Below are positions 9,906 through 33,480 of a stretch of 64,000 nucleotides of DNA, piece by piece. Within the stretch, counting starts at the first letter, position 1; every line of letters starts with the position of its first letter. The notes under the pieces were generated by a model. That model did no database searches, was not told the origin of the DNA, and saw only the letters and a list, made by a program, of their open reading frames with translations. Origin of the DNA: Candidatus Binatia bacterium (GTDB lineage Bacteria; Desulfobacterota; Binatia; UBA9968; JAJDTQ01); assembly GCA_963422385.1 (NCBI GenBank), contig OY729432.1:1237666-1301665 (forward strand), in the 5' to 3' direction. A program made the position numbers and the translations under genes.

Positions 9906-10062
9906 CCGGCCGTCCGCGGTTGGAAGACTTGAGGTATGGACATGGCGCCATCATGGCGCCCTTCGACTTCGCTCCGCTACGCCTGCCTTGAGCTTGCCGA
10001 AGGGCTCGGAACGAACGTTTGCGGTTTGACGGGATACCGGGATCCGAAAAAAAGGGAAGCAC

Positions 10063-11986: not shown

Positions 11987-12411
11987 TCATCCGCCCGACG
12001 CCGCAGGCCCCGTTGACATCTCTCCCCATCCCTTCCACCGTGAGCCAGATCCCTGAACGCACCCCGCCGGTGCGGCAGTCGGCACCGCGTTCCACCCCTG
12101 CACAACCCCTCTGCCACCATCCTCCGACGCACCATGTCCGCAGAGAACGAGAGCCGGGCCGTAAGAGCGCGGGCAGAGATTGGATATCCGGGAGAGCATC
12201 CCCGCTGTTCCCAACCGCCTGCACAAAGGAGACGGCACCATGACTACCAGTGTCACCTCGCAATCCTGGTAACGCAGAGGGGTCTCCCGGGCAATCTGAA
12301 GAAATTCGCACCACTGTATCTTGTCGGGCATTCAGAGCGCCGGAACCGTAGAGTTAATTCAGAATGGCGGGATCGTCGGAAGTATCGTAACGGCAGGAAC
12401 TACGGCTCACG

Positions 12412-14379: not shown

Positions 14380-16554
14380 ATGACGCATGATCCGGTGGTG
14401 CAGGACGATCCCGTTATCGCAACGGCGGAAGGAACGCTGCGGTTGCTGGACGGAGTTCGGCCACTCTACATGCTGCCTGCGGATCCGCTGGCGGAGGAAG
14501 TCCTGATCCCGGGCTTCCAGGCGGCGGGGAAGGTTGATTGCATCATGGTTGGGTTCTTCTCAAGCGAGGTGCTGGCCTCGCTTGCCCCCGGCCTCGCGAC
14601 CTACATCGCCGGTTCCGAGAACAGCTTCCGGCTTATCGTAAGCCCCCTGCTACAGACCGAAGACCAGGTGGCCATAGAGGACGGCCTGAAATCGGCGGAA
14701 GTAGTAGCGGACAGGATTCTCGAAGAACTGACCGTCACGGAGGACCTTCTTCAGCGCCATACGCTGAAGTGCCTGTCGTGGCTGCTCCGGGAGCGCAGAA
14801 TCGAAATCAAGGTCGCCCTGATGAAGGATGCTCTCTTTCATCCCAAGGTCTGGCTCTTCGAGAACAGGTCTGATGTCGTCGCGGCGCACGGGTCGAGCAA
14901 CGTAACCATTGCGGGCATTTGGAAGAACATCGAACAGATCGCCATATCCAGGTCGTGGCAGGACCCGAATCAGCGTTATATCACTGGCAAGCTTCGCTAC
15001 GAATTCGGCCGGTTGTGGGAGAACAAGGACGAGAACTGTATCGTCATCGCGATGCCGGAGGCGGTCAGACAGCGCCTGCTGCGGACGTACAGTTCAGAAT
15101 TCCCACCGACCGAAGACGAGCTGCGTGCTCTCTACGGTCGCGCGACAGGCGTATCGGAGGAGCCCGAACCCTACGAGGCCGTTTCAGTACCGGCGACGAG
15201 TTTCGCGATACCAGGCTGGCTGAGTTACAAAGACGGACCATTCGAACACCAGGGAAAAGCGGTCGATGCATGGGACGAGGCCCGGTATCGCGGTGTTCTG
15301 GAAATGGCGACCGGCTCGGGCAAGACGATCACCTCTATGATCGGCGCGTACCGTCTCTGCCAACGACACAAGCCTCTCCTGATCGTCGTCGCCGCGCCTT
15401 ATGTGCCGCTAATCGAACAGTGGTGCGATGAAATCGCGCCGTTCGGCTTGAAGCCGGTCAACCTCACCACGGCCGGGAGCGCCGCGAAACGCGCGAGCGA
15501 GTTGCAAAAACTGAAACGACGGCTGCGCACCGGCCTGTCGGATGTTGAAGCGGTTGTCGTCAGCCACGACACGCTGTGCACTCCGGAGTTCCTTGCCGCC
15601 ATCGAGGCGTTCGACTGCGCACGCCTACTGATCGCGGACGAGGTGCACAACCTCGGGCGGCCATCCTTTATCAACGATCCGCCCGAATTCTTCGAGTACC
15701 GTCTTGGCCTCTCGGCGACGCCGATACGCCAGTATGACGAAGACGGAACGGAAGCGTTGTTTGGGTTCTTCGGACCTGTGGCCTTCCGGTTCACGCTCGA
15801 AGAAGCCATCGGCCAGTGCCTTGTCGAATACGACTACTACGTCCATGCCGTGTACCTCACGAAAAGTGAGATGGACGAATGGTTCGACCTCACGGGAAAA
15901 ATCAAGCAGAACGCGTGGCGCAGTGAGGGCGGAAAGCCGGAAGAATATCTCGCCAAGTTGCTGCGGGACCGGCGCGCTTTGCTGGAGACGGCGTCGGGCA
16001 AGGTTGCCACCCTAGGTACTCTTCTGAAGGAAGAGAACACGGGCAACCTGCGGCACACGCTGGTCTACACGTCGGACAAGGGACCAGATCAGCTCGACAA
16101 CGTGAACCGGCTGCTGCGACACAGGAATATCCTGTTCCACCAGCTCACAGCCAAGGAGACAGCAAGCCGGCATCAGACGAAGCAGATCATCAAATCCTTT
16201 CAGGAGGGTGAAATCCAGATGCTGACCGCAAAGCGTGTGCTAGACGAAGGGGTGAACATCCCGCAGATATGCAAGGCGTTCATCCTCGCGAGCACGACGG
16301 TCGAACGGCAATGGGTGCAGCGGCGCGGGCGACTTCTGCGCAAATGCAGCGCCATTGGCAAGACTCACAGCGTCATCCACGACCTGCTAGCCCTACCACC
16401 GGGCATGGAGGAAGGGCTAGATACCGATGCGCGCGCTCTTGTGCGCTCAGAGCTGCACCGGGCACAGGAATTTGCGAGGCTTGCGAGAAATGCAGGCCGA
16501 CCGGACGGGCCGCTGGTGACAATCGATAGAATGGTTGACGCCGCGTTCCTGTAG
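14380..16554 (+). CDS. PLD-family nuclease / SF2 (DEAH-type, ResIII-like) helicase fusion protein
   Basis: 724 aa. N-terminal HxK...GSSN phospholipase-D-like motif (HPKVWLFENRSDVVAAHGSSNVT). Helicase motifs I (ATGSGKT), II (DEVHNL), III (LSATP), VI (QRRGRLLR). GGGAGGA 4 nt upstream of the ATG. First gene of the operon. Confidence 0.82.
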   Translation: MTHDPVVQDDPVIATAEGTLRLLDGVRPLYMLPADPLAEEVLIPGFQAAGKVDCIMVGFFSSEVLASLAPGLATYIAGSENSFRLIVSPLLQTEDQVAIEDGLKSAEVVADRILEELTVTEDLLQRHTLKCLSWLLRERRIEIKVALMKDALFHPKVWLFENRSDVVAAHGSSNVTIAGIWKNIEQIAISRSWQDPNQRYITGKLRYEFGRLWENKDENCIVIAMPEAVRQRLLRTYSSEFPPTEDELRALYGRATGVSEEPEPYEAVSVPATSFAIPGWLSYKDGPFEHQGKAVDAWDEARYRGVLEMATGSGKTITSMIGAYRLCQRHKPLLIVVAAPYVPLIEQWCDEIAPFGLKPVNLTTAGSAAKRASELQKLKRRLRTGLSDVEAVVVSHDTLCTPEFLAAIEAFDCARLLIADEVHNLGRPSFINDPPEFFEYRLGLSATPIRQYDEDGTEALFGFFGPVAFRFTLEEAIGQCLVEYDYYVHAVYLTKSEMDEWFDLTGKIKQNAWRSEGGKPEEYLAKLLRDRRALLETASGKVATLGTLLKEENTGNLRHTLVYTSDKGPDQLDNVNRLLRHRNILFHQLTAKETASRHQTKQIIKSFQEGEIQMLTAKRVLDEGVNIPQICKAFILASTTVERQWVQRRGRLLRKCSAIGKTHSVIHDLLALPPGMEEGLDTDARALVRSELHRAQEFARLARNAGRPDGPLVTIDRMVDAAFL

Positions 16555-16571
16555 CGGCTGGAGGAAGAGAT

Positions 16572-16817
16572 ATGGCACTAAACGACAAAAAGATAATCTC
16601 GATCATCCTTGAGCAGTACTCGGGAATCGAGAAACGGTGCGAAGGCTACCGGGAACAGATTATCCAAGTGATTTCCGAAATTCTGGAATACGAACGAAGC
16701 CACAGGGTCTCCGCGACGAATATCCAGAAGAAGATCAACGACAAGTGCAACGCCACGGCGCGGTTCCTTGCGACGCAGCGCGGCCAAGACACCGGCACGG
16801 AGGAACTGGACTCATGA
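16572..16817 (+). CDS. small hypothetical protein (81 aa)
   Basis: Natural composition (MALNDKKIISIILEQYSGIEKRCEGYREQIIQVISEILEYERSHRV...). Its stop overlaps the next start (ATGA at 16814-16817), indicating translational coupling. Confidence 0.5.
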   Translation: MALNDKKIISIILEQYSGIEKRCEGYREQIIQVISEILEYERSHRVSATNIQKKINDKCNATARFLATQRGQDTGTEELDS

Positions 16818-18949
16818 AACTTCTCCGCGCCGAATTTCAGAACTTCCGTCTGCTCCGCGACCTTGAGCTTGAATTCTCCAGCGATCCCGACAGGAAGCTG
16901 ACGGTCATCCGCGCGGCGAATGAGTCGGGCAAGACGACGATCCTTCACGGCCTGCAATGGGTGCTCTATGGAGACGGGGCGTTACCTGGTAAAGGCGAGG
17001 GCTTTCGGCTCCATCCTATCGACTGGGATGCCAGCGAAGGCCAGCGCGTCCCGATCACAGCCACGGTGAAGTTCGAGTTGACGAAGTATCGTCGCACTTC
17101 AGGTGAAATGCGCGAAATGCGCCGGCGCTATCGCCTCGTGCGCTCCGCATTCGAGGATGTCGACAGTCAGGTCCATCGTTCCGCCTCGACCGTGAAGCTG
17201 TTTGCGCTGAACGAGACTGGAGCAAGTCCTATCGACGCGCCGGAAGCTCTGGTCAACGAGGAACTGCCGCCGGAGCTGCGGGAAGTCTTTTTCACCGATG
17301 GCGACCGGGCTCTAAGCTTTATTGAGGCGGATATCGCCCTGTCCACAAAACGCGAGCGCGTGCAGCGGGCGATCCGTTCCCTTCTCGGCCTCGGCGTGAT
17401 CGACGACGCAATCAAGCATGTGCGCAAATCGGCGGCGGAAGTGAACAAGAAGGCGAAACAGGTCGGTGGCGGCAGCGAACTGAACGCAATCGCTACGCGC
17501 CTCGAAGAGATGGAAAACAACCGCGAGAAATTAGAGGCCGACCTTGATGACGCGAAACAGCAATTCGGCGCTTTCGACGAGAAGATTGACGAAATCGATC
17601 GCAAGATCGCAGCGGCCCTCCAGAAGGGTGACAAGGAGAAGCTGCGCAAGGACCTCGACCACGCACGGGCCGAAATCAGGCACTTCGACAGCCAACTGGC
17701 GGCAGCGAACAAAGAACACTCGGCACTGTTTCACAGTCGGTCTATTGCAACCGACCTGCTCGCACCTGTGCTCACGGGCGCATTTGACAAGCTGGAAGAG
17801 TTGCACGACCAAGGCAAGATTCCGAACACGACGATCCCAGTGCTGCATGACCGCCTTGAAGCAAAAGTGTGCATTTGTGGCGAAACGCTGGAACCTGGTA
17901 ACCCGGGTGGCGACAAGCGCCGCGCGCGTATCCGAAAGCTGATCGACGACAACCAGCGCGTCGATGAAATCCAGGAAATCATCACAGACCTGTACTACAG
18001 CGCAAAGCCGCTACAGGGCAGCGGCGGATCGAGCGGGTGGCTAGAGGAATACAAGAAAGTGGTCAAGGGTCGCGACGGCATCCAGGCACTACGCGACAAA
18101 GCGGGCCGGAAGTTCCGAGCGCTGGAAATGCAGCTCGACTCGCTTCCCGACACGGACATCCAGGGCCTGCGCGAAACGTGCCGCCAGTACAAGGACAATC
18201 GTGACCGCCACCTGTCGAAAAGGTCGGCCATCGAAACCCAGCTTATGGGGCTGAGGCGCGATCGCGAAGGGATGGAAGCGAAGCGCGACCGCCGGCTGCG
18301 CGAACAGAAAAAGGGCGCGCGTATTCTGGCCGAGCGGGACGTCACGCAGGACGTGATGAAGGTGCTGAAAAGCGCTTATGCGCAAATTACGAACGAGGAA
18401 TTGCAAAAAGTCAGCGATCTGATGAACAGCATATTCCTCGAAATGATCGGTGCGGACCCTGAACAGGGCGCAATCATCCGGCACGCTGAGATCAGCCCGG
18501 AATTCGATATCATTGTCTATGGTCCGCAGGACAGGACACTTAACCCCGACCGGGACCTGAACGGTGCGTCACGGCGGGCGCTGACGCTCGCATTCATTCT
18601 GGCGCTGACGAAGGTCAGCGAGGTCGAAGCGCCGAATGTGATCGATACGCCGCTCGGCATGACGAGCGGCTTTGTGAAACGGTCTATTCTGCGCACGGCC
18701 GTGCGGGAGAGTGCGCAACTGATCCTGTTCCTGACGCACGATGAAATCGCCGGCTGCGAGGAGATCATCGACGAGGCCGCGGGCGTCGTCTTCACGCTGA
18801 CGAACCCGGCGCACTATCCGAAAATGCTCATCAACGATCCGGGGGTCGTCGAGCGCAAGGTGGTCCGCTGCGCCTGCGACCACTTGAACGAATGTGAACT
18901 CTGCCAGCGCCGCTCGGATGCGGAGGTCGAGTTGGGTATAGCGTCATAG
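16814..18949 (+). CDS. SMC/Rad50/DndD-like ABC ATPase with coiled coil, central CxC zinc hook and C-terminal Cys cluster
   Basis: 711 aa from ATG 16814. N-terminal FQNFRLL...IRAANESGKTTILHGLQWVLYG Walker A. About 350 aa of coiled coil with KVCICGE in the middle. C-terminal ABC signature/D-loop region (LTLAFILAL...VIDTPLGM...LFLTHD) and CACDHLNECELC. Confidence 0.82.
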   Translation: MKLLRAEFQNFRLLRDLELEFSSDPDRKLTVIRAANESGKTTILHGLQWVLYGDGALPGKGEGFRLHPIDWDASEGQRVPITATVKFELTKYRRTSGEMREMRRRYRLVRSAFEDVDSQVHRSASTVKLFALNETGASPIDAPEALVNEELPPELREVFFTDGDRALSFIEADIALSTKRERVQRAIRSLLGLGVIDDAIKHVRKSAAEVNKKAKQVGGGSELNAIATRLEEMENNREKLEADLDDAKQQFGAFDEKIDEIDRKIAAALQKGDKEKLRKDLDHARAEIRHFDSQLAAANKEHSALFHSRSIATDLLAPVLTGAFDKLEELHDQGKIPNTTIPVLHDRLEAKVCICGETLEPGNPGGDKRRARIRKLIDDNQRVDEIQEIITDLYYSAKPLQGSGGSSGWLEEYKKVVKGRDGIQALRDKAGRKFRALEMQLDSLPDTDIQGLRETCRQYKDNRDRHLSKRSAIETQLMGLRRDREGMEAKRDRRLREQKKGARILAERDVTQDVMKVLKSAYAQITNEELQKVSDLMNSIFLEMIGADPEQGAIIRHAEISPEFDIIVYGPQDRTLNPDRDLNGASRRALTLAFILALTKVSEVEAPNVIDTPLGMTSGFVKRSILRTAVRESAQLILFLTHDEIAGCEEIIDEAAGVVFTLTNPAHYPKMLINDPGVVERKVVRCACDHLNECELCQRRSDAEVELGIAS

Positions 18950-18955
18950 GAGGCG

Positions 18956-19420
18956 ATGATGACGGATCGATATTTCAATCCGTTCCAGGCAATCGATATC
19001 AACGTGCCAGTCGAATTCCATGAGGCGTTCATACGGTACTGCCAGCGAAGCGCCAACGCGGTGATCGACCAGAGCCCGTTTCCGCGCATGGTCGATCTCT
19101 GGTTCCTGTCCGTATGCGTCGCGAGTCGGCTCGGGCTTGATCCCGCCGACATCGCGAAATTCGATACGCGCAAGATCATTGATGGGTCGATATTTGGCAG
19201 CGATCCATGGCGTGTTCACACGATCATGCTCATTGCGATTGGCACATTGGGCGATGTGCAGGTCGTCTCCGAACCCCGCAAAATGATGACGCTGGCTAAC
19301 GGCCTTGCCGTGGCCGGCCTTCCAAAAGTCATCGAAATGCTCAAGGACGGCGATGCGGAACCGATCTGGAACCTGTCGGACGCTGTTGACGCTCTCTTGC
19401 GCAAAGAGAGGACAGCGTAG
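18956..19420 (+). CDS. hypothetical protein (154 aa) coupled to the SMC-like ATPase
   Basis: ATG 7 bp after the ATPase stop, with GGAGG spanning that stop. Natural composition; no motif recognised. Confidence 0.55.
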   Translation: MMTDRYFNPFQAIDINVPVEFHEAFIRYCQRSANAVIDQSPFPRMVDLWFLSVCVASRLGLDPADIAKFDTRKIIDGSIFGSDPWRVHTIMLIAIGTLGDVQVVSEPRKMMTLANGLAVAGLPKVIEMLKDGDAEPIWNLSDAVDALLRKERTA

Positions 19421-19534
19421 GAGCCGGTGCATGTCGATATCGGTTTGTGGGAATGCCTGGCGAAAAGCCGAATTTGGTGGCAGCAGTTGGGCGGGCGTAA
19501 TTGGGAAGCCGCATAACAAACGGAGATAAACGGC

Positions 19535-21907
19535 TTGTTCAAGATTTGTGCCCGCACAGTTCTGGAGCTAGGCGCTGAACTTATCAGTTCCGATGTCATC
19601 GCGTTCTATGAACTGATCAAGAATGCATTCGATGCCGAGTCCCCGACGGGAGCCGAGATTCGTTTCGAGATCACCCTGAGACGGAACGATTACCTGAAAT
19701 TCCGCCATCGGGCGGTCGAAGGACTTGCAGATATAGAGCATCTGAAATCCGACATCGAGAAATCACTCGACCAGTCGGCGCCGAAGGACTCACTGAACCG
19801 TTTCCGCAACGCGATACAGGGTGCGGATAATCTGGAAGAGCTTGTTGGAGTTCTGGACGCGGCGCACGCTTCGGAGAACAGGATTATCGTGTCCGACGAG
19901 GGCACGGGGATGTCGCGACAGGATTTGATAGACAACTATCTCGTTATCGGCACGGCATCGCGCAAGCGCGCGATCAACGCGGCCCTTGCGGGACACCACG
20001 CGGGAGACCGGCGCGCCCCGTTCCTCGGCGAGAAAGGCATCGGTCGGCTGTCGGCGATGCGACTCGGCGACCGGCTGATGGTCGAAACGGCCGAGCGTCG
20101 CGACAAGCGGCTAAACCTGCTCAGGATCGACTGGTCGGTTTTCGAAGACCTCGACGCGATGCTGGACGAGATCCATGTCGCGCCCGAGCATGGCACGTCC
20201 AAGCCGGATGGGAACTGGAGCGGCACGAAGCTGATTATGACCGCGCTCACTGCGGACTGGACGCATGATCGCGTCAAGCATCTTGGCGAGCATGATATTG
20301 CGCGGCTGACCGACCCGTTTGCCGATGTGAAACGGCGTCCACGTATCGCGATCTTCTGGAACGGCACACGCATCCCGGTTGCTCATATGAATCGAAACCT
20401 GCTGTCGCACGCCCATGCGTCCGTCAAGGGCCGGTTCATATACAGAGAATCAGGACCGATGTTACAGTGCACTTTCGAGGCGCTCGATCTTGGGTTTGAG
20501 CATCCGCACGAAGTGGAGAAGAGAGAATTTGTGCGGGCCGACCTCGAGGGCTCGATCATCGGTACCTCCAGCGAAGTTCCGTTGTCCGCACTTGATGGTC
20601 TTGGACCGTTCGAGTTCGAGGTCTACTGGTTTAACCGGCAGCGCCTCGGTCGCATCGACAGCATCGGCGACCGAAAGATTGTCCGTGACCTGCAAAGGAG
20701 GTGGTCAGGAATCCTGCTGTTCCGCGACGGGTTTCGCGTACTTCCCTATGGGGAAGATGATGACGACTGGCTTGCTCTGGACCGGCGCGCTCTGGCCAGC
20801 ACCGGATATCTCTTGAACAAGACACAGTTCGTCGGACGAGCCACAATCTCCCGTCTTGGCAATCCGTTGCTGATTGACCAGACAAACCGTGAAGGCTTGC
20901 GGGTTTGCTCCGAACAGCAAGCGTTCGTCAGCTTGTTGCAGCTCGCTATCCAGTCTCAGCTTCGCGATTTCATCCGGGAAGTCGAGCGCCGTCACAAGAA
21001 CCAACCTCTTGACATGACCGAGGCAAAGACCGGTGTGTCGAACCTCGAAAAGAGAGCGAAGGCCGCCCTCCGCCAGATCAGGAAAATTGCACCACAGTCC
21101 TCCGAGACGATCGAGGAATTGCAGCACACCTTCTTCGAGATCAAGGAGTTCTTCGACCGGGCGCAGCGCCGAATCGACGAAGTGGAGAGCGAGAACCGAC
21201 AGATGGTGCAGATGGCGGGCGTGGGTCTCTTGGTCGAAGTTGTAGCGCATGAACTTGCGCGATCGACCGAGAATGCGCTGGCGGCTCTTGAGGCTCTGCG
21301 CGGCAGGGACCTACCGGAACAGATCGGCGGCCTGCTCAACGCCCTCAGATCGGAGATGACATCGGTCAGTAAACGCGTCCGCGTGCTCGACCCGCTGAGC
21401 GTATCAGGACGACAACGCAAGGAAAGCTTCGATTTCGGCGCGTTGATTGAGGACATACTGAGCGGGCACGAGCTTCAGTTCGAACGTCATGACGTAAAAC
21501 TCAAGGCCAGCTTGCCTGACAACACCGTCCGCATCCGCGCGGTGAAGGGCATGCTCGTGCAGATTTTCGAAAACCTCTTGTCCAACTCGCTATACTGGCT
21601 CGACCTCCGTAAACAGCATGAGCCAAACTTTCGGCCGCGGATTGCCATTGCGATGGAAGACGACCCTCTCACGATCATCTATGAGGACAATGGCCGCGGA
21701 ATTGCACAAGAGAATCGTGAAAGCGTCTTTCGTGCCTTCTTCTCTCTGAAGGAGAAGTCGAAGCGCCGGGGGCTTGGCTTGTATATCGCGCGCGAATGCG
21801 CAGAATATCATGGTGGCAGCTTGACGCTGGACAATCACGTCAATCGCCAGACGGGACGCCTTCACCGTTTTGTGCTGCGACTGCCGGACGAGGTTATGGT
21901 CTCGTGA
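19535..21907 (+). CDS. dual GHKL ATPase: N-terminal MORC/MutL-like domain plus C-terminal histidine-kinase-like (H-box plus HATPase_c) module
   Basis: 790 aa. N-terminal N-box ELIKNAFDA, G1 DEGTGM, G2 GEKGIGRLS. C-terminal VAHELARSTEN (H-box-like), N-box ENLLSNSLYW, G1 EDNGRGI, G2 GLGLYIAREC. A 115-bp gap upstream suggests a possible internal promoter. Confidence 0.78.
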   Translation: MFKICARTVLELGAELISSDVIAFYELIKNAFDAESPTGAEIRFEITLRRNDYLKFRHRAVEGLADIEHLKSDIEKSLDQSAPKDSLNRFRNAIQGADNLEELVGVLDAAHASENRIIVSDEGTGMSRQDLIDNYLVIGTASRKRAINAALAGHHAGDRRAPFLGEKGIGRLSAMRLGDRLMVETAERRDKRLNLLRIDWSVFEDLDAMLDEIHVAPEHGTSKPDGNWSGTKLIMTALTADWTHDRVKHLGEHDIARLTDPFADVKRRPRIAIFWNGTRIPVAHMNRNLLSHAHASVKGRFIYRESGPMLQCTFEALDLGFEHPHEVEKREFVRADLEGSIIGTSSEVPLSALDGLGPFEFEVYWFNRQRLGRIDSIGDRKIVRDLQRRWSGILLFRDGFRVLPYGEDDDDWLALDRRALASTGYLLNKTQFVGRATISRLGNPLLIDQTNREGLRVCSEQQAFVSLLQLAIQSQLRDFIREVERRHKNQPLDMTEAKTGVSNLEKRAKAALRQIRKIAPQSSETIEELQHTFFEIKEFFDRAQRRIDEVESENRQMVQMAGVGLLVEVVAHELARSTENALAALEALRGRDLPEQIGGLLNALRSEMTSVSKRVRVLDPLSVSGRQRKESFDFGALIEDILSGHELQFERHDVKLKASLPDNTVRIRAVKGMLVQIFENLLSNSLYWLDLRKQHEPNFRPRIAIAMEDDPLTIIYEDNGRGIAQENRESVFRAFFSLKEKSKRRGLGLYIARECAEYHGGSLTLDNHVNRQTGRLHRFVLRLPDEVMVS

Positions 21908-23814
21908 CGGAGCTGAAGGATCTTCTCGCAGCACGGGGAATCACACGCGCCCTCGTCATAGACGACGTGTTTGACTCCCTTCCACGTCCCGAGGAACTCA
22001 ATGACGGTGATTGGTCGAATTTCTTCGATGACCTCGGCGATGCCGGAAACGAACTGCTCAAGGAATTGTATAAAGGATATGAAGAAGCATCAGCCGAAGA
22101 GCTGAAGGCATCTCAGGATTTTATCACGGTAGTTTGGGAAAACCGTACGAAACTGCCGAACGCGGCCTGCGATCACCTGTTCCACGACTATGAGGAGACG
22201 AAGACTACGGAACGCGCGGGCCTCGATGTGCTCGTCGGCGCACTGGGAGCGCTGGGGCTGGCCTGCACAACGATGGGGCGCGAACTTAACGAGGGAGCGA
22301 AGCAAGCAGAGCTGATCTTTGTCGACTTGTTCTTGGGTTTCCATCAGTCCGAAGACGATATGGAACGAGCAGTCAGACGTGTCGGTGAACTGGTCGAAGG
22401 GCGTGTTCAGAACCCGCCGCTCGTCGTCCTCATGTCACGTAGTCCCCGGCTTCAGGAAAAACGAAACGAGTTTCGGGACACGGCGGGACTCTTAGGGTCC
22501 ACGTTTCGCGTCGTCAGCAAAGCTGACCTCGCCAGGGAAGGAACGCTGGAGACCCTGTTGACGCGGCTGGCGAATCACTACGAGGACGCAAAACGTGTTG
22601 CTGGCTTTGTCCATGCGTGGGACAGCGGCCTCGACCAGGCACGGCGGAATTTTGTCCGCATACTGCGCCGTCTGGATCTATCGGACCTTGCACAGGTGCG
22701 GGCGCTGCTGCTCGACTTCGAGGGGCAGCGCCTCGGTGAGTATCTTCTCGACGTTGCCGACCGGGTTTTGCAGCATGAGATAGAAGATGACGACAATACG
22801 ATTGCGGCGGCTCTGAAGCTGAACAAAATCGATTTGAGAAAATACCCAGCCCCGCATCTGGCCGGTTCTCCGGATTTGCAGGAACTCGTGCACCGCATGG
22901 TGTTTGTGCACCCTGATCGCCTGCGTCTTTCGGCGAACGAAAACAAGGTGCAATTGCAGTTTGGCGACGTGCTGCGTTGGAAGGCTGATGAGGGCGATGG
23001 CTACGGTGGTGCTGTTTCGCTGGTCGTGAGTCCGGCATGTGATCTTGTGCGCGACGGCGCCGAGCGCGTCATGCTGCTTTCGGGTACGCTCGAAGAGCTT
23101 CAGCCCAAGAATTGGTCTTACAGGGCCGGCCCGATCAGAACAGCCATTGTGATACTACCCGACGAGGGGCGGAAGTGGATCAGGTGGAACCTCAAGAATG
23201 TCAGAAGCCTGGAGTGGAACAAGCTGGACAAGTTGATCGGAGAGGACGTCAGTCTAAAGCGCATTGGCCGGCTCCGGGAAATCTACGCAATCGAAATCCA
23301 GCAAATGCTCCTGACGAACCTAGGCCGAATCGGCCAGCCCGCGAACCTGCCGGTCCCATTCCCGGTTGCCATTTCGTTGTTCTACGTAGGAATCGATTGC
23401 AAGGCGCGTAGACTTGCTGTCAACCATATCGACTCCGCTGCCTGCTACGTCGGGCGCGGCGAAAGGCCGCAACCGGTACACCGGCTGGTCCTGTCGGAGC
23501 AAACTTGCGATCACATAGAGCAGGCTTTGCAGGCGTTGGGCCAGGATGCCGTTCGGCAATCCGCCCAAGCCAGCCTTGCAGCCGTAAAGGCGGACCGCGA
23601 CTTCTTCACCAAGTTCGAGCGAGGCGAGATCGAGATGCCCACCGACGCAGGCACGAAGGTCATCAAGGCGGACAACAATAGGGTCTATGCCGCGATCATT
23701 CGAGGCGGAAAATTCGACGAAGGAAGTGATATCGTAGGCGAACCCCGGAAAGCGGCTTTGATCGTCAAAGTGACGGATATCGCCGGCCATGACGGGGACC
23801 AAAACGGTCCCTGA
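21904..23814 (+). CDS. hypothetical protein (636 aa), last gene of the operon; possibly a receiver-like N-terminus
   Basis: GTG start overlapping the preceding stop (GTGA). N-terminal ...RALVIDDVFD... and later ...LIFVDLFLG...PPLVVLMSRS... resemble a degenerate receiver domain (inference only). The remainder is unassigned. Confidence 0.6.
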   Translation: MTELKDLLAARGITRALVIDDVFDSLPRPEELNDGDWSNFFDDLGDAGNELLKELYKGYEEASAEELKASQDFITVVWENRTKLPNAACDHLFHDYEETKTTERAGLDVLVGALGALGLACTTMGRELNEGAKQAELIFVDLFLGFHQSEDDMERAVRRVGELVEGRVQNPPLVVLMSRSPRLQEKRNEFRDTAGLLGSTFRVVSKADLAREGTLETLLTRLANHYEDAKRVAGFVHAWDSGLDQARRNFVRILRRLDLSDLAQVRALLLDFEGQRLGEYLLDVADRVLQHEIEDDDNTIAAALKLNKIDLRKYPAPHLAGSPDLQELVHRMVFVHPDRLRLSANENKVQLQFGDVLRWKADEGDGYGGAVSLVVSPACDLVRDGAERVMLLSGTLEELQPKNWSYRAGPIRTAIVILPDEGRKWIRWNLKNVRSLEWNKLDKLIGEDVSLKRIGRLREIYAIEIQQMLLTNLGRIGQPANLPVPFPVAISLFYVGIDCKARRLAVNHIDSAACYVGRGERPQPVHRLVLSEQTCDHIEQALQALGQDAVRQSAQASLAAVKADRDFFTKFERGEIEMPTDAGTKVIKADNNRVYAAIIRGGKFDEGSDIVGEPRKAALIVKVTDIAGHDGDQNGP

Positions 23815-23817: not shown

Positions 23818-24657
23818 CTACTTGTGGCAGGCAAGACAAACCTTTGCCTGCCCGTACAGGTCGTCAATGTCCAGCGGCTCGATATCCGGCCTTAAGGGGT
23901 TGGTCTGTACCTTCGAGCGCATCCGTGCAAGCCGTTGTTCATGATCCTGCCTGATCTGTTCGACGCGATCCGGCCGTTCCAGATCTTCAAGCGACTCCCC
24001 CTGACTCCAGGTAAAAGGCGAGCCGTGCTCGACGGCGTTCTTCTCGTATGCCTTGGCCTCTTCGAACGCCTCAGGGTGCTGCTCTTTGAGCCGTACCCAT
24101 TCAATCTTTTGCTGGAAGAAGCAGAAGGTGCAGCCGCTACGCGTGCGCCAGGAATAGTATTTGGGTAGACCGAGCCCAGCCCCATCGAGAATCTCAAGGA
24201 CCCCTGCCTTGTCGATCCCCGCCTGCTTGAACGGCAAGTTGATGACCAGGTTGTCGTGCTTGGAAGAATAGCCTTCGCGGTATTCCTCATCGCTGCGGAT
24301 CGCGACGTAACTATGGACCGTCGTCCCATCGACCAGCAGCGGGCGAAGCCAGTGCTCGAACGGACGGAGTTTTAGCTGCCGCGTGCACCAGCGCGTCTGT
24401 GGCGAAGGAAGGAAATCATTGTATTGCTTGAGCCAGAAGTCGAAGTCGCGGTCCGGGTTCAGTTTGCGTATCGGTTGACCGAGAAATCCCTCCAGCAGCC
24501 CGAGATATTCGTAAACCTCGGGCAGTTCCTTGCCCGTATCCGTAAAAAAGTATTCGATTTCGAGTTCGGGGTGACGCTGTCGCATGTAAACGGCGAGCGC
24601 CGCGCTGTCGCGCCCGCCGGATAGGCCAAGTACGTGTTTCACAGGACCGGTCGTCAA
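23818..24657 (-). CDS. sspD: SspD/DndC-like PAPS-reductase-family ATP pyrophosphatase (phosphorothioation)
   Basis: 279 aa with PP-loop LSGGRDS and conserved Cys cluster (CTFC...). TTG start overlaps the sspC stop. Small size fits SspD rather than the roughly 500-aa DndC. Confidence 0.8.
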   Translation of the reverse strand: MTTGPVKHVLGLSGGRDSAALAVYMRQRHPELEIEYFFTDTGKELPEVYEYLGLLEGFLGQPIRKLNPDRDFDFWLKQYNDFLPSPQTRWCTRQLKLRPFEHWLRPLLVDGTTVHSYVAIRSDEEYREGYSSKHDNLVINLPFKQAGIDKAGVLEILDGAGLGLPKYYSWRTRSGCTFCFFQQKIEWVRLKEQHPEAFEEAKAYEKNAVEHGSPFTWSQGESLEDLERPDRVEQIRQDHEQRLARMRSKVQTNPLRPDIEPLDIDDLYGQAKVCLACHK

Positions 24658-27600
24658 GAAGCGGCCTTTTCTTTCCCATTTTTTTGTGCAGGCGGATAAT
24701 TTTGCATGTAGCGCGTGCTGAGTTCCGCCAGCGCCGCCAGAATGATGCTCCGGCGGCTAGTGTCGGCGGCCTCCAACGAGGCGGCAACACGCTCGATGAG
24801 ATCATTGACGGCAACACGGTCGGCGTCGGCGATGTCGAATTCCTCGAGCAGCGGCACCGGCCGGCCGTCCATACCGATGATGACGGCCATGGCCTGTCGC
24901 TTGTCGGGGCGGCCCTGAACGCGCGCATACGTCTCGGCCCGGAGGAATTTCTGCGCCATGTCGGCAAGCTCGATTGCCGCATGGTCTATATCGGGATCGA
25001 CCCATTCACGCGGCGACTTGTTCGCGGCAAGACTCGCGATCCCTTCGAAACTCTCGTCCGAACCGTCGAACTGCGCCAGTCGGCCGACGAAGGCGTCGAG
25101 CCGGAAATCTCCGGCAAGCCGCCTGATATTCTCGGCGCGCTTGCGCAATTCCACCAGGGACTGCGGAGAGACGTTAGGAACCTGCATCTCCTCCAGCATG
25201 ATATCGCGCAGGCGGTGAAGCATCGACGGATAGGCCATTACCAGTTCTTCCAGGCCTTCGCGGACGCTTACGACGACACGGCGCAAACCGTCTTCGTCTT
25301 CATTGGCAAGCGAAACGTCTTCGCCAAGCGTTTCCGGTATGTCGTCGAACAGGAACCGGTTGGGATCGTGCGCCCGTTTGAACAGATCGCGAATTTTTAC
25401 AGCATTGGATGACAGCCGCATCGTCAGCCCGGTCCATTTGGGAAGCCGGTCGTAGATCCCGACAAGGCCGCGCCCGACATCGATGGGCTCCAGGTGAACA
25501 AGCTCGTTCGCGTCGTCGAGATCGCGGACTACCTGCGCCATACCCGACAACAAGCGGCGTGCAACATCGGTCAGATCCATCCAGCGCAACTGGATGAAGG
25601 TCGGGTCCTTGGCAAGATACTCCACGTCCACGTCGTCGAACTTGGTCCTAAATATGCCATTCCGGTAGACCGCCAGTTTTTTGTGCTGGGACAGAACGAA
25701 TGCTACGGCAAGGATCGGCATGAGACCGTCCTTCACGCCAAAGGGCATCTCGCGCCATAGTTCGAACAGCTCGGATACCGCGACGGTGCGCGAGGAGCGT
25801 TCCTTCACATGGTCGAGCGCGGCAGTCCACAGCGGGGCCAGGTGGCAAGGATCTGCACCATTCGTCGGGGCAACGAATCGCCACCCCTTGCCTTCCCGGG
25901 CATAGAGCCCAGTCGCTTCCAGGACGGATTCGAACAGCCCACCCTCGGCCGGGTACCCTTGGATACCAAGGCGAGCTTCGCCCTCGTTCAGGACCATGCG
26001 GCGCAACAGGGCGTTCTGTGCCGCGATGGCATTGCTTGACGGTTTCTGCCGACTCAGCAATTCGTTATGCAGCCGCGGCGACTTCGCGAAGCGGCGGTCT
26101 GCTAGCTCGGAGGCGATGCCGTTCAGATCGGCCTGCCGCAGGCGTTTGGGCAGGTAGTTTTTCCGGAACCACAGCGCATTGTCGAATGCCTTGTGCAGTT
26201 CGGTTTCAAGCAGGGCCTGCAAGGCCGCAAGGCGAGCGGAGACTTCCCGCCGCGCAACGAAATCGCCCGCGAGTTCCGGATGATCATTGCTGACACTATC
26301 GAGCGCAAACAGCTCCCGCGCTAGGGGCACAACTACCCATGACTTTTTCGAAATCCCGACGACGACGTCCCATGCATCGCTATACCGCGCGGCTTTGCGG
26401 CACAGGTCCTCGGCACAGGCCTCGCTCTCTCCCTCGGTCGGAATCGCCAGCAGGAATTGTCCTATAGCGCCGTTCTCCGGCCCAAGCCTCGTGGCGAATT
26501 CGACGAGGCCACTGATCGGCACGACGTATACGTCGAACCATCTCAGCGCGCCGGTGTCATGATAGTGGCGCTTGGCGAGGATCGGCTGAAGTCCCGCGAC
26601 GGATTTCAACTCGGTGAAATCCACCTCGTCAATCTCGTCGAGCGCGGCCCGCACCGCTCTATCAATATCGAAATCGCTCCCTGCGAAGATGGCGCGTGCG
26701 TCGAGGAATTTCTTGAAGATCGTGAACGACCATGTGTCCAGTTGCGAGAGCACTTTTTCAAGCGCCTTGTCCGATGTACCGTGGAAACAGGTGCGCAGCA
26801 GGTCAAAATTTGCCACGAGGCCCGAGCGTTCCTTGAACAGGTCAATGACGGCGATTGTCTTGAGTAACCCGACATGAAGGGAGTCGCCGCCAATGGATTC
26901 GCATCGTTCGATCGCTTCCGCTGCCAAGGCCCACCGATGTCCGTCCGGCGAAGCGAGGATGGACGGTTCCAGGTTGGCGCGAAGATAGTCCCAAAGCCGG
27001 TCGGGGCCGTACAGTTCGCCGTCCCCGTCATGGTTCAGATAGTCCTGAAATCCGTGCGGTTCGGAGGAATTCAGGAAACCGAATATGCTGCGCTGATTTT
27101 GCCCGAATCGCCGCCGCGATATCGGTCCAAGCAAACAAGCGACAACGGGATGCAGTGGCCAGCATGCTTCCAGCATTGCGGCGAGCCGTGCAACGTCACC
27201 AGCGCGTTCCCGACGTGCGAAACCGGCGACGGCGGACGCGAGCGGGCCGGGCTTCTTTGGACGATAATCACTCTCGATGGCGCGTGAGATCAGGTCGATT
27301 TGCTCTTCAACCGCAGTGTTGACAACGAGGTCGATGAAACGCCCCTGAACTTTCGCCCACTCGTCGCGCATTTCGTGCGAGAGGCGATGGGCGTATTCCT
27401 CGAACGCTTGGTGCAACACGCCGATGACAAGAAAACGCCCCTTGCTTCGCGACGCGGCTTCAGCAAGCTGCTGGAGGATGTAGATGTCGGAGCCGTCCCG
27501 CGCGGCGGCCTCCAGAAACTTGCCCATCTCGTCGATGACCAGGACTAGCCCGCCGTGCGTCTTCGGCCTGGATGCAGCCGCCTCGGTCAGGGTGTCGATC

Positions 27601-29005: not shown

Positions 29006-29159
29006 GCTCCCCTCGGTCACTGGATGATGCCTCCAGTTCGACTGTAGCCGACGAGTCATGCTATGGTCAACAGATACTTGGATGGTGCACCTAGAAGCAC
29101 ACGGTCGCCGGAACCCCGGCAATCAACAAGCCTTTGTGGTTCTAACTCATTGAAGCACA

Positions 29160-32054: not shown

Positions 32055-32056
32055 CC

Positions 32057-32835: not shown

Positions 32836-33480
<645 letters not shown>

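What the first reader, a model, noticed from the sequence alone, without database searches (positions are those of the whole stretch)
14380..23814. Six-gene operon of unusual architecture packed against an Ssp phosphorothioation module: candidate new PT-dependent (or independent) defence system
- **Missing partner:** the sspA/sspBCD modification genes here lack the canonical SspE partner (DUF262 NTPase plus DUF1524/HNH).
- **What sits there instead:** a tightly coupled, convergent operon abuts sspD with a 3-bp gap. It encodes a PLD-nuclease/SF2-helicase fusion, an 81-aa protein, an SMC/Rad50-like ATPase, a 154-aa protein, a dual-GHKL ATPase and a 636-aa unknown.
- **Coupling:** stop/start overlaps (ATGA, GTGA) link genes 2-3 and 5-6.
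- **No match to known effectors:** this set does not match the SspE, DndFGH/DptFGH or PbeABCD effector architectures as far as domain content can be judged by eye. SMC-like plus PLD plus helicase plus GHKL (paraMORC) components are recurring parts of restriction-like defence systems.
- **Alternative reading:** it could also be two independent systems sharing a transcript: genes 1-4, then genes 5-6 after a 115-bp gap.
Basis: partly seen in the sequence, partly recalled or inferred. Interest (0 to 1): 0.92.

Follow-up and report, generated by a model that had tools for sequence, protein, structure and literature searches.

The report
PbeABCD plus kinase–receiver pair beside Ssp
The six genes are two units packed against a DNA-sulphur-marking (Ssp) module: the already named PbeABCD defence cassette, and a barely studied soluble kinase/receiver pair that was next to Ssp genes in almost every genome examined, which makes the pair a good candidate for the missing partner of Ssp systems that lack a known effector.

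Summary
In detail: six co-directional, tightly spaced genes (14380-23814) end 3 bp from the stop of sspD, and the window holds no SspE or SspFGH.

- **Genes 1-4 are PbeABCD**, a named system. PbeA matches at E 3e-191 over its full length and PbeC at 5e-51 with its CxC motif. The two small genes have the right size and position. The claim that the operon does not match PbeABCD is refuted.
- **Genes 5-6 are a separate unit.** It is a soluble histidine kinase with an extra Hsp90/MORC-like ATPase at its N-terminus, plus a 636-aa protein. That protein's N-terminus is a receiver domain by predicted fold and keeps the DD/D/S/K residues. Its C-terminus is an orphan domain with an invariant Cys-Asp.
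- **Link to Ssp:** the pair lay next to ssp genes in 27 of 27 evaluable MAG/metagenome loci and in 7 records from cultured strains, in several gene orders, and down to 21% identity.
- **Slot:** in relatives, the same position beside sspD holds SspE, SspFGH or PbeABCD.
- **Prior art:** the architectural class (HEF_HK/Response_reg_2, next to R-M systems) was described computationally in 2021. A 2025 paper noted in one sentence a kinase beside SspE-less Ssp in Acinetobacter baumannii global clone 2.

Verdict: a known cassette plus a new, PT-linked variant of a known but functionally untested class.

The parts
14380..16554 (+). pbeA: HKD/PLD nuclease domain fused to an SF2 (ResIII/DEAD) helicase, 724 aa
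   Evidence: PADLOC PbeA 3.1e-191 over residues 33-705. TIGR04095 dnd_restrict_1 9.5e-108. Pfam ResIII, DEAD, Helicase_C and PLDc_2. The motifs HPKVWLFEN..GSSN, GSGKT and DEVH are present here; GSGKT and DE[AV]H are present in all 14 orthologues, and the strict HKD pattern was found in 11 of 14.
16572..16817 (+). pbeB: small 81-aa protein between pbeA and pbeC
   Evidence: No HMM hit even at E<=10. Assigned by position and size: PbeB is 66 aa in H. jeotgali and is described as a rapidly evolving small protein (PMC6459918, PMC10853773). It is present at the same position in 16 related loci at 46-84% identity. Its stop overlaps the pbeC start (ATGA).
16814..18949 (+). pbeC: CxC-type ABC (SMC/Rad50-like) ATPase, 711 aa
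   Evidence: PADLOC PbeC 4.9e-51, also DndD 2.6e-28. Pfam AAA_23. A CIC motif lies at residue 353 in the middle of the coiled coil and is conserved in 15 of 15 orthologues. This is the feature by which Rakesh et al. define PbeC (PMC10853773).
18956..19420 (+). pbeD: 154-aa protein (reported to be a DndE cognate)
   Evidence: Assigned by position and size (PbeD is 152 aa, PMC6459918). Conserved in 16 related loci at 57-90% identity and, down to 44%, in further Ssp-linked Pbe cassettes. No Pfam, PADLOC or PDB sequence hit, so the DndE relationship rests on the literature, not on a test made here.
19535..21907 (+). Soluble dual-GHKL histidine kinase, 790 aa: N-terminal Hsp90/MORC-like ATPase (HATPase_c_3), coiled coil, HEF_HK-like DHp with H572, C-terminal HATPase_c
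   Evidence: Pfam HATPase_c_3 5.4e-13 (residues 111-204) and HATPase_c 1.9e-19 (673-785). HEF_HK covers residues 563-622 over the full profile, but at 15.3 bits, below the cut-off of 24.1. PDB profile hits: histidine kinases on 528-784 and Hsp90-family proteins on 81-192. E26/N30, D121xGxG, G165xxGxG, H572, N680/N684, D718xGxG and G746xG are invariant in 30 homologues. No transmembrane segment. TTG start and ribosome-binding site invariant.
21904..23814 (+). Receiver-domain protein, 636 aa: divergent REC (1-225, with a helical insert at 34-116), helical linker (226-345), orphan output region (about 350-625) with invariant C379-D380
23818..24657 (-). sspD (PAPS-reductase-like), convergent on the receiver gene with a 3-bp gap
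   Evidence: PADLOC SspD 1.5e-136 over its full length. Junction read.
24654..28052 (-). sspC (BrxC-like ATPase), 1132 aa
   Evidence: PADLOC SspC E=0, 1332.8 bits, full length.
28049..29122 (-). sspB (DUF4007). The true start is probably further downstream (about 29005), because the profile match starts at residue 53 and orthologues are about 320 aa
   Evidence: Pfam DUF4007 2.7e-86. PADLOC SspB 7.3e-107. Orthologue lengths.
29160..30347 (+). sspA (cysteine desulfurase), divergent from sspB; it marks the end of the conserved mobile block
   Evidence: PADLOC SspA 1.4e-123. Pfam Aminotran_5 2.6e-75. DNA similarity to related loci stops at about 30350.

Best explanation
Window 14.4-30.35 kb is a horizontally mobile, 10-gene composite phosphorothioate (PT) defence block. 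SspABCD writes the PT mark. Two separable modules sit in the 'effector slot' beside sspD.

**Module 1: PbeABCD, a named cassette**
- It consists of an HKD-nuclease/helicase, a small protein, a CxC ABC ATPase and a DndE-like protein.
- Here it is paired with Ssp rather than with Dnd.

**Module 2: a cytoplasmic two-component-like pair**
- It belongs to the HEF_HK (paraMORC-derived) class.
- This branch is specifically tied to Ssp.

**Proposed mechanism for the pair (inferred, not shown)**
1. The kinase's N-terminal Hsp90/MORC-like ATPase module engages DNA or the Ssp machinery and reads the modification or infection state.
2. This switches autophosphorylation of H572.
3. The phosphate passes to D141 of the receiver protein.
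4. That releases the receiver protein's C-terminal Cys-Asp output domain, which stops phage or host growth.
5. The pair thus adds a second layer next to the nuclease-type module (PbeABCD here; SspFGH or an 810-aa GHKL protein elsewhere).

**Shown here**
- Gene identities.
- Intact catalytic motifs in both ATPase sites and at H572.
- Receiver fold, from an AlphaFold2 model, with an intact phospho-acceptor set.
- Strict genomic linkage to ssp.
- Occupancy of the same slot as SspE and SspFGH.

**Inferred**
- That phosphotransfer occurs.
- What is sensed.
- That the output is toxic or antiviral.
- That PT is required.
For: **Identities**
- Established.

**Receiver domain**
- The DD/D/S/K set is invariant across 52 homologues of 22-50% identity.

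**Linkage, sampling by the receiver protein**
- The kinase is directly upstream in every locus with a complete receiver gene and upstream sequence. In one of them (L015) an insertion interrupts the kinase.
- ssp genes lie within 10 kb in 27 of 27 evaluable MAG/metagenome loci. For three of these, only an sspD(-like) gene lay inside the stretch fetched.
- At least three gene orders occur, with SspC identity down to 25%.
- The same holds in seven records from cultured strains:
  - Agrobacterium tumefaciens K224
  - Agrobacterium sp. T29
  - Rhizorhabdus wittichii RW1 (Swit_5323/5324)
  - R. wittichii MPO218, where SspGH-like genes are adjacent and sspBCD lies outside the stretch fetched
  - Ensifer adhaerens NER9 (receiver only 21% identical)
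  - Polaromonas CJ2
  - Acinetobacter baumannii VB1190

**Converse sampling, by SspD (45 loci with at least 5 kb beyond sspD)**

| Occupant of the slot beside sspD | Loci |
|---|---|
| PbeABCD | 15 |
| Helicase + GHKL + ~305-aa triad | 10 |
| SspFGH | 7 |
| Kinase/receiver pair | 7 |
| SspE | 6 |

- Some loci hold two occupants.
- The pair needs Ssp; Ssp does not need the pair. This is the pattern expected of an exchangeable effector.

**Cousins**
- Cousins of the pair sit convergent on DNA methylases in the same geometry (C. jejuni HK-RR> <dcm; PMC8011034).
- They share the 'GD..TPxCD' output core.

**Other support**
- Neither protein has a membrane segment, so the cue is intracellular.
- Precedent for a defensive phosphorelay: Detocs.
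Against: - There is no experimental datum for this pair or for its whole class.
- The output domain has no recognisable catalytic fold. The MazF-like hit is weak (Foldseek E 0.01) and is not supported by HMMER or hhalign.
- In most loci another nuclease-type module (Pbe, SspFGH, the 810-aa GHKL protein) is also present. The pair may therefore be an accessory or regulator rather than an effector.
- The receiver protein does not match Pfam Response_reg_2, and the kinase matches HEF_HK only below threshold. Class membership therefore rests on architecture and a short shared motif.
- Many loci are copies of one mobile block, so the locus counts are not independent events.
- PbeABCD has been shown to work only with DndCDEA (double-stranded PT), not with the single-stranded PT made by Ssp.
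Confidence: 0.6

Rival explanations
1. The kinase/receiver pair is a regulator, not an effector. It tunes the level or timing of PT modification, or switches on the neighbouring nuclease module (PbeABCD, SspFGH) by protein-protein contact or transcription, much as DndB controls dnd.
For: - Two-component systems usually regulate.
- The pair usually co-occurs with another effector-type module (Pbe in 16 of 25 loci, the 810-aa GHKL protein in 6, SspFGH in 4).
- An XRE regulator lies between the pair and sspA in R. wittichii RW1, and beside sspA in Ensifer.
- The TTG start of the kinase is invariant, which suggests a low, controlled dose.
Against: - No DNA-binding domain is detectable in the receiver protein.
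- Its roughly 400-aa C-terminus keeps invariant acidic and Cys residues, typical of an enzyme.
- Some loci have only Ssp plus the pair: A. baumannii VB1190, and L054 and L073, where none of the tested effector families was found.
- Methylase-linked cousins consist of little more than kinase, receiver and methylase.
Confidence: 0.25
2. Genes 5-6 are an autonomous abortive-infection system that merely clusters with Ssp and Pbe in defence islands and has no functional dependence on PT.
For: - Defence genes cluster.
- The region is a low-GC island.
- Related loci carry toxin-antitoxin genes, integrases and Tn7-like genes.
- Detocs works alone.
Against: - ssp genes lie beside the pair in every evaluable locus, across at least 10 phyla or classes and down to 21-25% identity.
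- This holds in several gene orders, usually within 0-1.5 kb and often 3-40 bp from sspD.
- The only copy without ssp genes within 10 kb is a 0.8-kb remnant (L024).
- Cousins are tied to other DNA-modification genes (PMC8011034).
Confidence: 0.08
3. One reading: all six genes form one new, indivisible defence system that replaces SspE.
For: - The genes are co-directional and tightly spaced, with two stop/start overlaps.
- The six genes travel together with sspABCD in 15-16 related loci.
Against: - Genes 1-4 are the named PbeABCD.
- Pbe occurs beside Ssp without genes 5-6 in 10 of 45 loci.
- Genes 5-6 occur beside Ssp without Pbe in at least 14 loci.
- Other genes (the 810-aa GHKL protein, SspFGH) take the place of Pbe.
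Confidence: 0.05

Closest known systems
PbeABCD (the CxC ABC-ATPase/DndE-cognate system): Xiong et al. 2019, PMC6459918; re-annotated by Rakesh, Aravind and Krishnan 2024, PMC10853773
   Same: Genes 1-4 share with it:
- the same four genes in the same order
- the same sizes
- a full-length PbeA match and a PbeC match
- the HKD motif, helicase motifs and CxC hook
- location next to PT-modification genes
   Different: - The PT module here is SspABCD (single-stranded PT), not DndCDEA.
- No dnd gene was found among the genes examined at 5-33 kb of the window, including the whole conserved block.
- I found no paper that reports the Ssp-Pbe pairing, yet it occurs in 15 of 45 SspD-sampled loci.
- PbeB and PbeD are assigned by synteny only.
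HEF_HK / Response_reg_2 two-component-like pairs linked to R-M systems and paraMORC ATPases (Bellieny-Rabelo et al. 2021, PMC8011034)
   Same: - The kinase architecture is identical: HATPase_c_3 + HEF-type DHp + HATPase_c, soluble.
- The partner has a divergent REC with loop insertions.
- The two genes are adjacent or overlapping.
- The pair lies beside a DNA-modification gene.
- The output core 'GD..TPxCD' is shared with a C. jejuni member.
   Different: - The neighbour is Ssp PT modification, not a C5 or N6 methylase.
- The receiver protein fails the Response_reg_2 model, and the kinase is below the HEF_HK cut-off.
- The receiver protein is nearly twice as long (636 aa against about 210-340 aa in the two cousins inspected).
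- That paper does not mention PT and contains no functional test.
SspE and SspFGH, the validated partners of SspABCD (PMC8092258; Xiong et al. 2020)
   Same: - They occupy the same position beside sspD in closely related Ssp modules.
- They show the same asymmetric dependence: the partner always comes with Ssp, but Ssp often comes without that partner.
- Several partners can share one Ssp module.
   Different: - No sequence or domain similarity. PADLOC has SspE, SspF, SspG and SspH models and none is hit.
- The presumed logic is phosphotransfer rather than a PT-stimulated NTPase-nuclease.
Detocs (DtcABC), the defensive two-component system (Rousset et al., bioRxiv 10.1101/2023.01.24.525353)
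   Same: A cytoplasmic histidine kinase plus a receiver protein whose output is not a DNA-binding domain, a phosphorelay used for defence.
   Different: - The Detocs sensor is a TPR region, not a GHKL ATPase.
- Detocs has a third 'buffer' receiver protein, which is absent here.
- Its effector is a PNP ATP nucleosidase.
- It has no link to DNA modification.
BREX type 2 / Pgl (PglW kinase, PglZ phosphatase), relatives of Ssp
   Same: - Ssp shares BrxC-like, PAPS-reductase-like and DUF4007/BrxA-like parts with BREX (PMC12839542).
- BREX-type systems also combine a DNA mark with protein-phosphorylation enzymes.
- A PglW-like kinase fused to SspF occupies the same slot in two loci.
   Different: - PglW is a Ser/Thr kinase and PglZ is an alkaline-phosphatase-fold enzyme.
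- There is no His-Asp relay and no homology to genes 5-6.

Membership tests
PbeABCD | PbeA: HKD/PLD nuclease fused to an SF2 helicase | tested here: met
   PADLOC PbeA 3.1e-191, full length. The HKD, GSGKT and DEVH motifs are present.
PbeABCD | PbeC: ABC ATPase with a CxC zinc hook at the coiled-coil apex | tested here: met
   PADLOC PbeC 4.9e-51. A CIC motif at residue 353 is conserved in 15 of 15 orthologues.
PbeABCD | Small PbeB between A and C, and a PbeD of about 150 aa (DndE cognate) after C, in fixed order | tested here: inconclusive
   Order and sizes match (81 and 154 aa against 66 and 152 aa), and both genes are conserved in synteny. No profile or PDB match supports homology to PbeB or to DndE.
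PbeABCD | Coupled to DndCDEA modification; protection depends on PT | tested here: not met
   None of the proteins screened at 5-33 kb of the window matched a Dnd model better than an Ssp or Pbe model. The adjacent modification module is SspABCD. Dependence on PT cannot be tested with these tools.
SspABCD modification module | SspA, SspB (DUF4007), SspC and SspD all present and adjacent | tested here: met
   PADLOC E-values: SspA 1.4e-123, SspB 7.3e-107, SspC 0, SspD 1.5e-136.
SspABCD-SspE / SspABCD-SspFGH | Presence of SspE (DUF262 + DUF1524) or of SspF, SspG and SspH | tested here: not met
   None of the six proteins hits an SspE/F/G/H model. tblastn of bona fide SspE/F/G/H against the whole window finds nothing. 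The models do detect true members in related loci.
Classical two-component system | Kinase with H box and N, G1, F and G2 boxes | tested here: met
   H572 (VAHELARS), N680/N684, D718xGxG and G746xG are invariant. HATPase_c 1.9e-19. PDB histidine-kinase hits cover DHp plus CA.
Classical two-component system | Receiver domain: (beta-alpha)5 fold with DD, D, T/S and K at the ends of beta1, beta3, beta4 and beta5 | tested here: met
Classical two-component system | Phosphotransfer from His to Asp | not testable with these tools
   This needs biochemistry.
HEF_HK / Response_reg_2 class (PMC8011034) | Kinase architecture HATPase_c_3 + HEF_HK + HATPase_c, soluble | tested here: inconclusive
   Both HATPase domains are significant. 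HEF_HK aligns over positions 2-62 of 67, but at 15.3 bits against a cut-off of 24.1. Relatives score 18-22.8 bits. No membrane segment.
HEF_HK / Response_reg_2 class (PMC8011034) | Partner carries Pfam Response_reg_2 (PF19192) | tested here: not met
   No hit in the window protein, in 65 + 52 homologues, or in four plasmid-borne relatives. A short shared output motif with a C. jejuni member is the only direct link.
Detocs | DtcA (TPR + HK), DtcB (lone REC) and DtcC (REC + PNP or another known killer domain) | tested here: not met
   No TPR, no lone REC gene and no PNP domain. Features taken.

The most novel reading that the evidence does not exclude
The kinase/receiver pair is the long-sought effector of 'orphan' Ssp systems, those without SspE or SspFGH; such systems are about 84% of sspBCD clusters (PMC8092258). 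They include the Ssp of Acinetobacter baumannii global clone 2. In this reading, a MORC-like ATPase reads the PT status of DNA and converts it, through a His-Asp phosphorelay, into activation of a previously unknown Cys-Asp toxin or nuclease domain. This would be the first case in which a DNA-modification-based immune system makes its self/non-self decision by protein phosphorylation.
Probability: 0.35. Interest if true: 0.8.

Novelty: new variant of a known kind. Interest (0 to 1): 0.6.

Why it matters
- **Orphan Ssp systems:** most Ssp modification modules have no known restriction partner (83.9% of 2,678 sspBCD clusters, PMC8092258), and why is an open question.
- **A testable candidate:** the kinase/receiver pair is strictly linked to ssp genes.
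  - It sits in the slot that holds SspE or SspFGH in related loci.
  - It occurs in tractable cultured strains: R. wittichii RW1 (Swit_5323/5324), A. tumefaciens K224, Methylocaldum sp. 14B, Polaromonas CJ2.
  - It also occurs in A. baumannii global clone 2, where Ssp is reported to be the commonest defence system and to lack sspE (PMC12421847).
- **A first concrete context for the class:** the HEF_HK/paraMORC two-component-like class has had no function since 2021. Its members sit beside a DNA-modification enzyme, whether a methylase or Ssp.
- **A second result:** PbeABCD, shown experimentally only with Dnd, is a frequent neighbour of Ssp. This suggests that it can read single-stranded PT, or that it acts independently of the mark.

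Tried and rejected
**Searches that found nothing**
- PADLOC, Pfam and NCBIfam on g2, g4 and g6, even at E<=10.
- Pfam run on every member of two g6 alignments.
- PDB sequence searches with g6 profiles and with a PbeD profile.
- A scan of viral contigs for the receiver family.
- HMMs of the four receiver sub-regions against all ORFs of all loci. They found only the receiver proteins themselves.

**Tests that were not significant**
The best local match did put D141 on CheY D57.
- As a result, the REC call rests on predicted fold plus residues, and the MazF-like idea stays a weak lead.

**Models and libraries that could not be used**
- The AlphaFold2 model of the kinase was poor (pLDDT 59), so I did not use it for fold search.
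- The afdb50 library was unavailable.

**Operon structure**
- The promoter/terminator scan and an alignment of the g4-g5 spacer gave no conserved element beyond the ribosome-binding site and the TTG start. One versus two transcripts is left open.

**Ideas rejected**
- g5-g6 as Detocs: no TPR, no buffer REC, no PNP.
- g5 as a plain paraMORC: it has a complete DHp plus CA kinase core.
- g6 as SspE-like: no DUF262 or DUF1524.
- The 766-aa DndB-faint protein of L029 as SspE: no PADLOC hit.

Full report
**1. The observation**

| Gene | Coordinates | Length |
|---|---|---|
| g1 | 14380-16554 | 724 aa |
| g2 | 16572-16817 | 81 aa |
| g3 | 16814-18949 | 711 aa |
| g4 | 18956-19420 | 154 aa |
| g5 | 19535-21907 | 790 aa |
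| g6 | 21904-23814 | 636 aa |

- The junctions were read directly. g2/g3 overlap as ATGA and g5/g6 as GTGA. The g6 stop is 3 bp from the stop of the convergent sspD.
- g5 starts at TTG, 8 nt after a GGAG.
- sspD, sspC, sspB and the divergent sspA are unambiguous (PADLOC 1.5e-136, 0, 7.3e-107 and 1.4e-123).
- Bona fide SspE, SspF, SspG and SspH sequences taken from related loci find nothing in the whole window by tblastn. The missing canonical partner is therefore real.
- The region lies in a lower-GC stretch: 58-60% from about 6 kb to 33 kb, against about 66% elsewhere.

**2. Genes 1-4 are PbeABCD**

- g1 matches PADLOC PbeA at 3.1e-191 over residues 33-705, and TIGR04095 (DNA phosphorothioation system restriction enzyme) at 9.5e-108.
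- g1 carries an intact HKD motif (HPKVWLFEN..GSSN) plus GSGKT and DEVH.
- g3 matches PbeC at 4.9e-51. It also matches DndD, its sister clade, at 2.6e-28.
- g3 carries the CxC motif (CIC at residue 353) in the middle of its coiled coil. The motif is conserved in 15 of 15 orthologues. Rakesh, Aravind and Krishnan use this feature to define PbeC as a 'CxC ABC ATPase' rather than an SMC (PMC10853773).
- g2 (81 aa) and g4 (154 aa) hit no profile. They do have the position and size of PbeB (66 aa) and PbeD (152 aa) of Haloterrigena jeotgali (PMC6459918), and they are conserved in synteny.
- A PbeD profile does not find DndE in the PDB. The 'DndE cognate' label therefore rests on the literature.

**3. 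Genes 5-6 are a soluble kinase/receiver pair**

*The kinase (g5)*
- It has an N-terminal HATPase_c_3 domain (5.4e-13), most similar to Hsp90-family ATPases in the PDB and to the GHKL module of BbrUII/HgiDII-type restriction enzymes.
- It has a C-terminal HATPase_c (1.9e-19) preceded by a DHp helix pair. The best solved relatives over 528-784 are histidine kinases such as LvrB and HK853.
- All Bergerat motifs of both ATPase sites, and H572 in VAHELARS, are invariant in 30 homologues.
- There is no membrane segment.

*The receiver protein (g6)*
- It hits nothing by sequence.
- Its AlphaFold2 model (pLDDT 79, about 90 for residues 1-225) shows a (beta-alpha)5 domain with a helical insert after beta1.
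- In an alignment of 52 homologues only 22-50% identical to it, 16 columns are invariant. They include D20, D21, D141, S178 and K206, the canonical receiver set, placed at the ends of beta1, beta3, beta4 and beta5. They also include E273, E294, D355, C379, D380, G394, W428 and R475 in the C-terminal part.
- Foldseek's best hit for the C-terminal part is E. coli MazF (E 0.01, TM 0.55-0.60 normalised to the target). The local sequence pattern resembles MazF/PemK. HMMER and hhalign do not support the relationship, so I treat it as a weak lead.

**4. What the pair is linked to**

*Size and spread of the family*
- The receiver family is large: at least 483 close homologues, and 927 representatives at the 50% identity level. 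Its length is constant.

*Sampling by the receiver protein*
- This gave 30 loci from MAGs and metagenomes. They come from Binatia, Thermodesulfobacteriota, Rhodospirillales, three acidobacterial groups, Gemmatimonadota, Beta- and Gammaproteobacteria, Rhodothermales and Latescibacterota.
- In every locus that holds a complete receiver gene and upstream sequence, the kinase is directly upstream. In L015 an insertion interrupts it.
- ssp genes lie within 10 kb in 27 of 27 evaluable loci (and the gene tables). In three of these (L013, L018, L021) only an sspD(-like) gene lay inside the stretch fetched.
- The three non-evaluable loci are two short contigs and one 0.8-kb remnant of the kinase/receiver junction.
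- At least three arrangements occur:
  - pbeABCD-HK-RR> <sspDCB sspA>, as in the window
  - sspBCD>HK>RR> on one strand
  - sspBCD>pbeABCD>HK>RR>
- SspC identity falls to 25% while the linkage persists.

*Cultured strains*

| Record | Arrangement | Note |
|---|---|---|
| A. tumefaciens K224, pAtK224b | HK-RR, SspFGH-like genes, then <sspD sspC | |
| Agrobacterium sp. T29 | HK-RR, SspFGH-like genes, sspD, sspC | receiver 26% identical |
| R. wittichii MPO218 | SspGH-like genes, IS5, HK-RR | sspBCD outside the stretch fetched |
| R. wittichii RW1, pSWIT01 | Swit_5323/5324, XRE, sspABCD | |
| Ensifer adhaerens NER9 | HK-RR> <sspDCBA | receiver 21% identical |
| A. baumannii VB1190 | HK-RR> <sspDCB | receiver matches the family HMM at 50.7 bits and keeps DD/D/T/K and PCDL |
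| Polaromonas CJ2, pPNAP02 | sspFGH>HK>RR> <sspDCB | |

**5. The converse sampling defines an 'effector slot'**

I used the window's SspD to fetch 80 metagenome loci. Of these, 45 have at least 5 kb beyond the sspD stop. I clustered the genes found there and named representatives with PADLOC.

| Occupant beside sspD | Loci | Evidence or note |
|---|---|---|
| PbeABCD | 15 | 5 of them also carry the pair |
| Helicase + MzaB-like GHKL + ~305-aa protein | 10 | uncharacterised triad |
| SspFGH | 7 | SspF 2.2e-219, SspG 2.5e-206, SspH 0 |
| Kinase/receiver pair | 7 | 2 of them without Pbe |
| SspE | 6 | 7.5e-264 |
| PglW-like kinase fused to SspF | 2 | |

- The pair therefore sits where validated PT-dependent effectors sit.
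- The dependence is asymmetric: the pair always has Ssp, but Ssp often lacks the pair. Exchangeable effectors show this pattern.
- PbeABCD is a common neighbour of Ssp on its own. I found no paper that reports this pairing.
- In loci without Pbe, an 810-aa family with a weak HATPase_c_3 signal often takes its place directly upstream of the kinase, in 7 loci.

**6. One block, two modules**

- DNA similarity to related loci begins at the pbeA start and ends at the sspA stop. It is a single 15,956-bp alignment at 87.6% identity to a Binatia MAG. The 10 genes therefore travel as a unit.
- Pbe occurs with Ssp and without the pair, and the pair occurs with Ssp and without Pbe.
- Whether they share a transcript is open. 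The 114-bp spacer has no consensus promoter or terminator, and apart from the ribosome-binding site and the TTG start it is not conserved.

**7. Prior art**

- Bellieny-Rabelo et al. 2021 (PMC8011034) defined Pfam HEF_HK (PF19191) and Response_reg_2 (PF19192).
  - They worked from soluble kinase-like proteins (HATPase_c_3 + HEF_HK + HATPase_c) and adjacent receiver-like proteins, which were 91.6% linked.
  - The pairs were enriched next to R-M genes, especially C5 methylases, and the authors derived them from paraMORC ATPases.
  - The work is computational and never mentions PT.
- How the window's proteins compare with those models:
  - The window kinase aligns to HEF_HK over the whole profile but below threshold (15.3 bits against a cut-off of 24.1).
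  - Relatives reach 22.8 bits.
  - None of the Ssp-linked receiver proteins matches Response_reg_2.
- Distant kinase homologues on plasmids show the class in its published context:
  - C. jejuni: HK-RR(340 aa)> <dcm
  - B. finegoldii: HK, 209-aa protein, HNH, N6 methylase
- The C. jejuni receiver shares 'GDIV..ILTPSCDIV' with the window's 'FGDVL..VVSPACDLV'. The Cys-Asp core may therefore be common to the class.
[quoted passage not shown] It says no more than that.
- Searches combining SspABCD, sspBCD or phosphorothioate with histidine kinase, response regulator, MORC or GHKL found nothing else.

**8. Mechanism**

- My best-supported reading is as follows.
  1. SspABCD marks host DNA.
  2. PbeABCD and the kinase/receiver pair are two effector-side modules that share that mark, as SspE and SspFGH are known to do (PMC8092258).
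  3. Within the pair, the GHKL/MORC-like head senses DNA or the Ssp machinery.
  4. The kinase core phosphorylates D141 of the receiver protein.
  5. The Cys-Asp output domain acts.
- Detocs shows that such a relay can serve defence.
- Every step after 'intact motifs and linkage' is inference.
- The main rival is a regulatory role. It gains weight because another nuclease-type module is usually present beside the pair.

**9. Verdict**

- The operon is real and conserved.
- Two thirds of its genes are an already named system.
- The remaining pair is a PT-linked branch of a known, functionally untested class.
- Its link to Ssp is strong and consistent across the loci examined, and it bears on orphan Ssp systems, including those of a major clinical clone.
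- I rate novelty as 'new variant of a known kind' and interest at 0.6.

Noticed in passing
window 19535 (kinase start) and the same position in L003-L023: The kinase gene uses a TTG start preceded by GGAG(A/G)TAA. Both are invariant in 14 orthologous loci, while the rest of the roughly 115-bp spacer is not conserved. A fixed weak start codon suggests selection for low kinase dosage.
   Followed up: partly
L001:5136-7565, L010:5158-7590, L011:5022-7460, L027:4926-7379, L007:15028-17487(-), L016:1-2243(-), L115:4355-6772(-): A family of about 810 aa with only a weak HATPase_c_3 signal and no PADLOC hit. It replaces pbeABCD directly upstream of the kinase, or lies nearby, in 7 loci without Pbe. 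It may be another uncharacterised Ssp-associated component.
   Followed up: partly
L045:14312-17165; L002:15742-20159(-); also L060, L079, L081, L086, L088, L091, L102, L103, L107: A recurrent triad beside sspD: an SF2 helicase (PbeA-helicase-like), a MzaB-like GHKL ATPase of about 630 aa, and a protein of about 305 aa. It is as frequent in the slot as SspE or SspFGH (10 of 45 loci) and is not a named Ssp partner in PADLOC.
   Followed up: partly
L075:3423-7559 and L076 (same gene): A 1378-aa fusion of a PglW-like Ser/Thr kinase (PADLOC PglW 3.2e-49) with an SspF-like region (1.1e-26) sits right after sspD. This is a second, unrelated way of putting a protein kinase beside Ssp.
   Followed up: no
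L008:11899-13386, L017, L019, L023; L005:11896-14214, L007:12048-14987, L014: Extra genes are inserted between the receiver gene and sspD. In four loci it is a 495-aa Mrr_cat nuclease that starts at the receiver gene's stop. In three loci it is an HNH + STAND + TPR protein of 770-980 aa.
   Followed up: partly
L029/L030:1-2318: One divergent kinase/receiver + Ssp block lies next to Tn7-like genes (Mu-transposase C-terminal domain, TniB, TniQ), which suggests transposon cargo. Plasmid copies sit beside integrase and VapBC genes.
   Followed up: no
L015:5271-8571; L020:583-2543; L021:9893-14015; L024:9559-10342: Decay of the pair in some genomes: the kinase is split by an insertion of about 2.4 kb (L015), the receiver gene is frameshifted (L020) or interrupted (L021), and a Kaistiaceae MAG retains only a 0.8-kb remnant of the kinase/receiver junction, with no ssp genes nearby (L024).
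   Followed up: partly
window 7169-7615 (+), with 6348-7172 (+): An ORF matches only the C-terminal part of the N6_N4 DNA methylase profile (1.9e-13, profile positions 137-219 of 221). It is probably a decayed or frameshifted methyltransferase inside the same low-GC island.
   Followed up: no
window 9433-12012 and 31161-32847 against L004: The Thermodesulfobacteriota MAG locus L004 shares DNA similarity (76-86%) with the window outside the 10-gene block as well. No other locus does. Either the mobile unit is larger in these two genomes, or one MAG's taxonomic label deserves a check.
   Followed up: no
window 23818-24657 (sspD) against L001-L110: SspD is much more conserved than its partners: 74-90% identity in loci where SspC and SspB are 40-80% identical.
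   Followed up: no
L114:13571-13852 and L115:17902-18210: A small XRE-family regulator gene lies directly beside sspA in R. wittichii RW1 and Ensifer adhaerens NER9. The window has no counterpart between sspB and sspA.
   Followed up: no
window 28049-29122 (sspB): The longest ORF (357 aa, TTG start) is probably over-extended. The DUF4007/SspB profiles start at residue 53 and orthologues are about 320 aa, so the real start is likely the ATG near 29005.
   Followed up: partly
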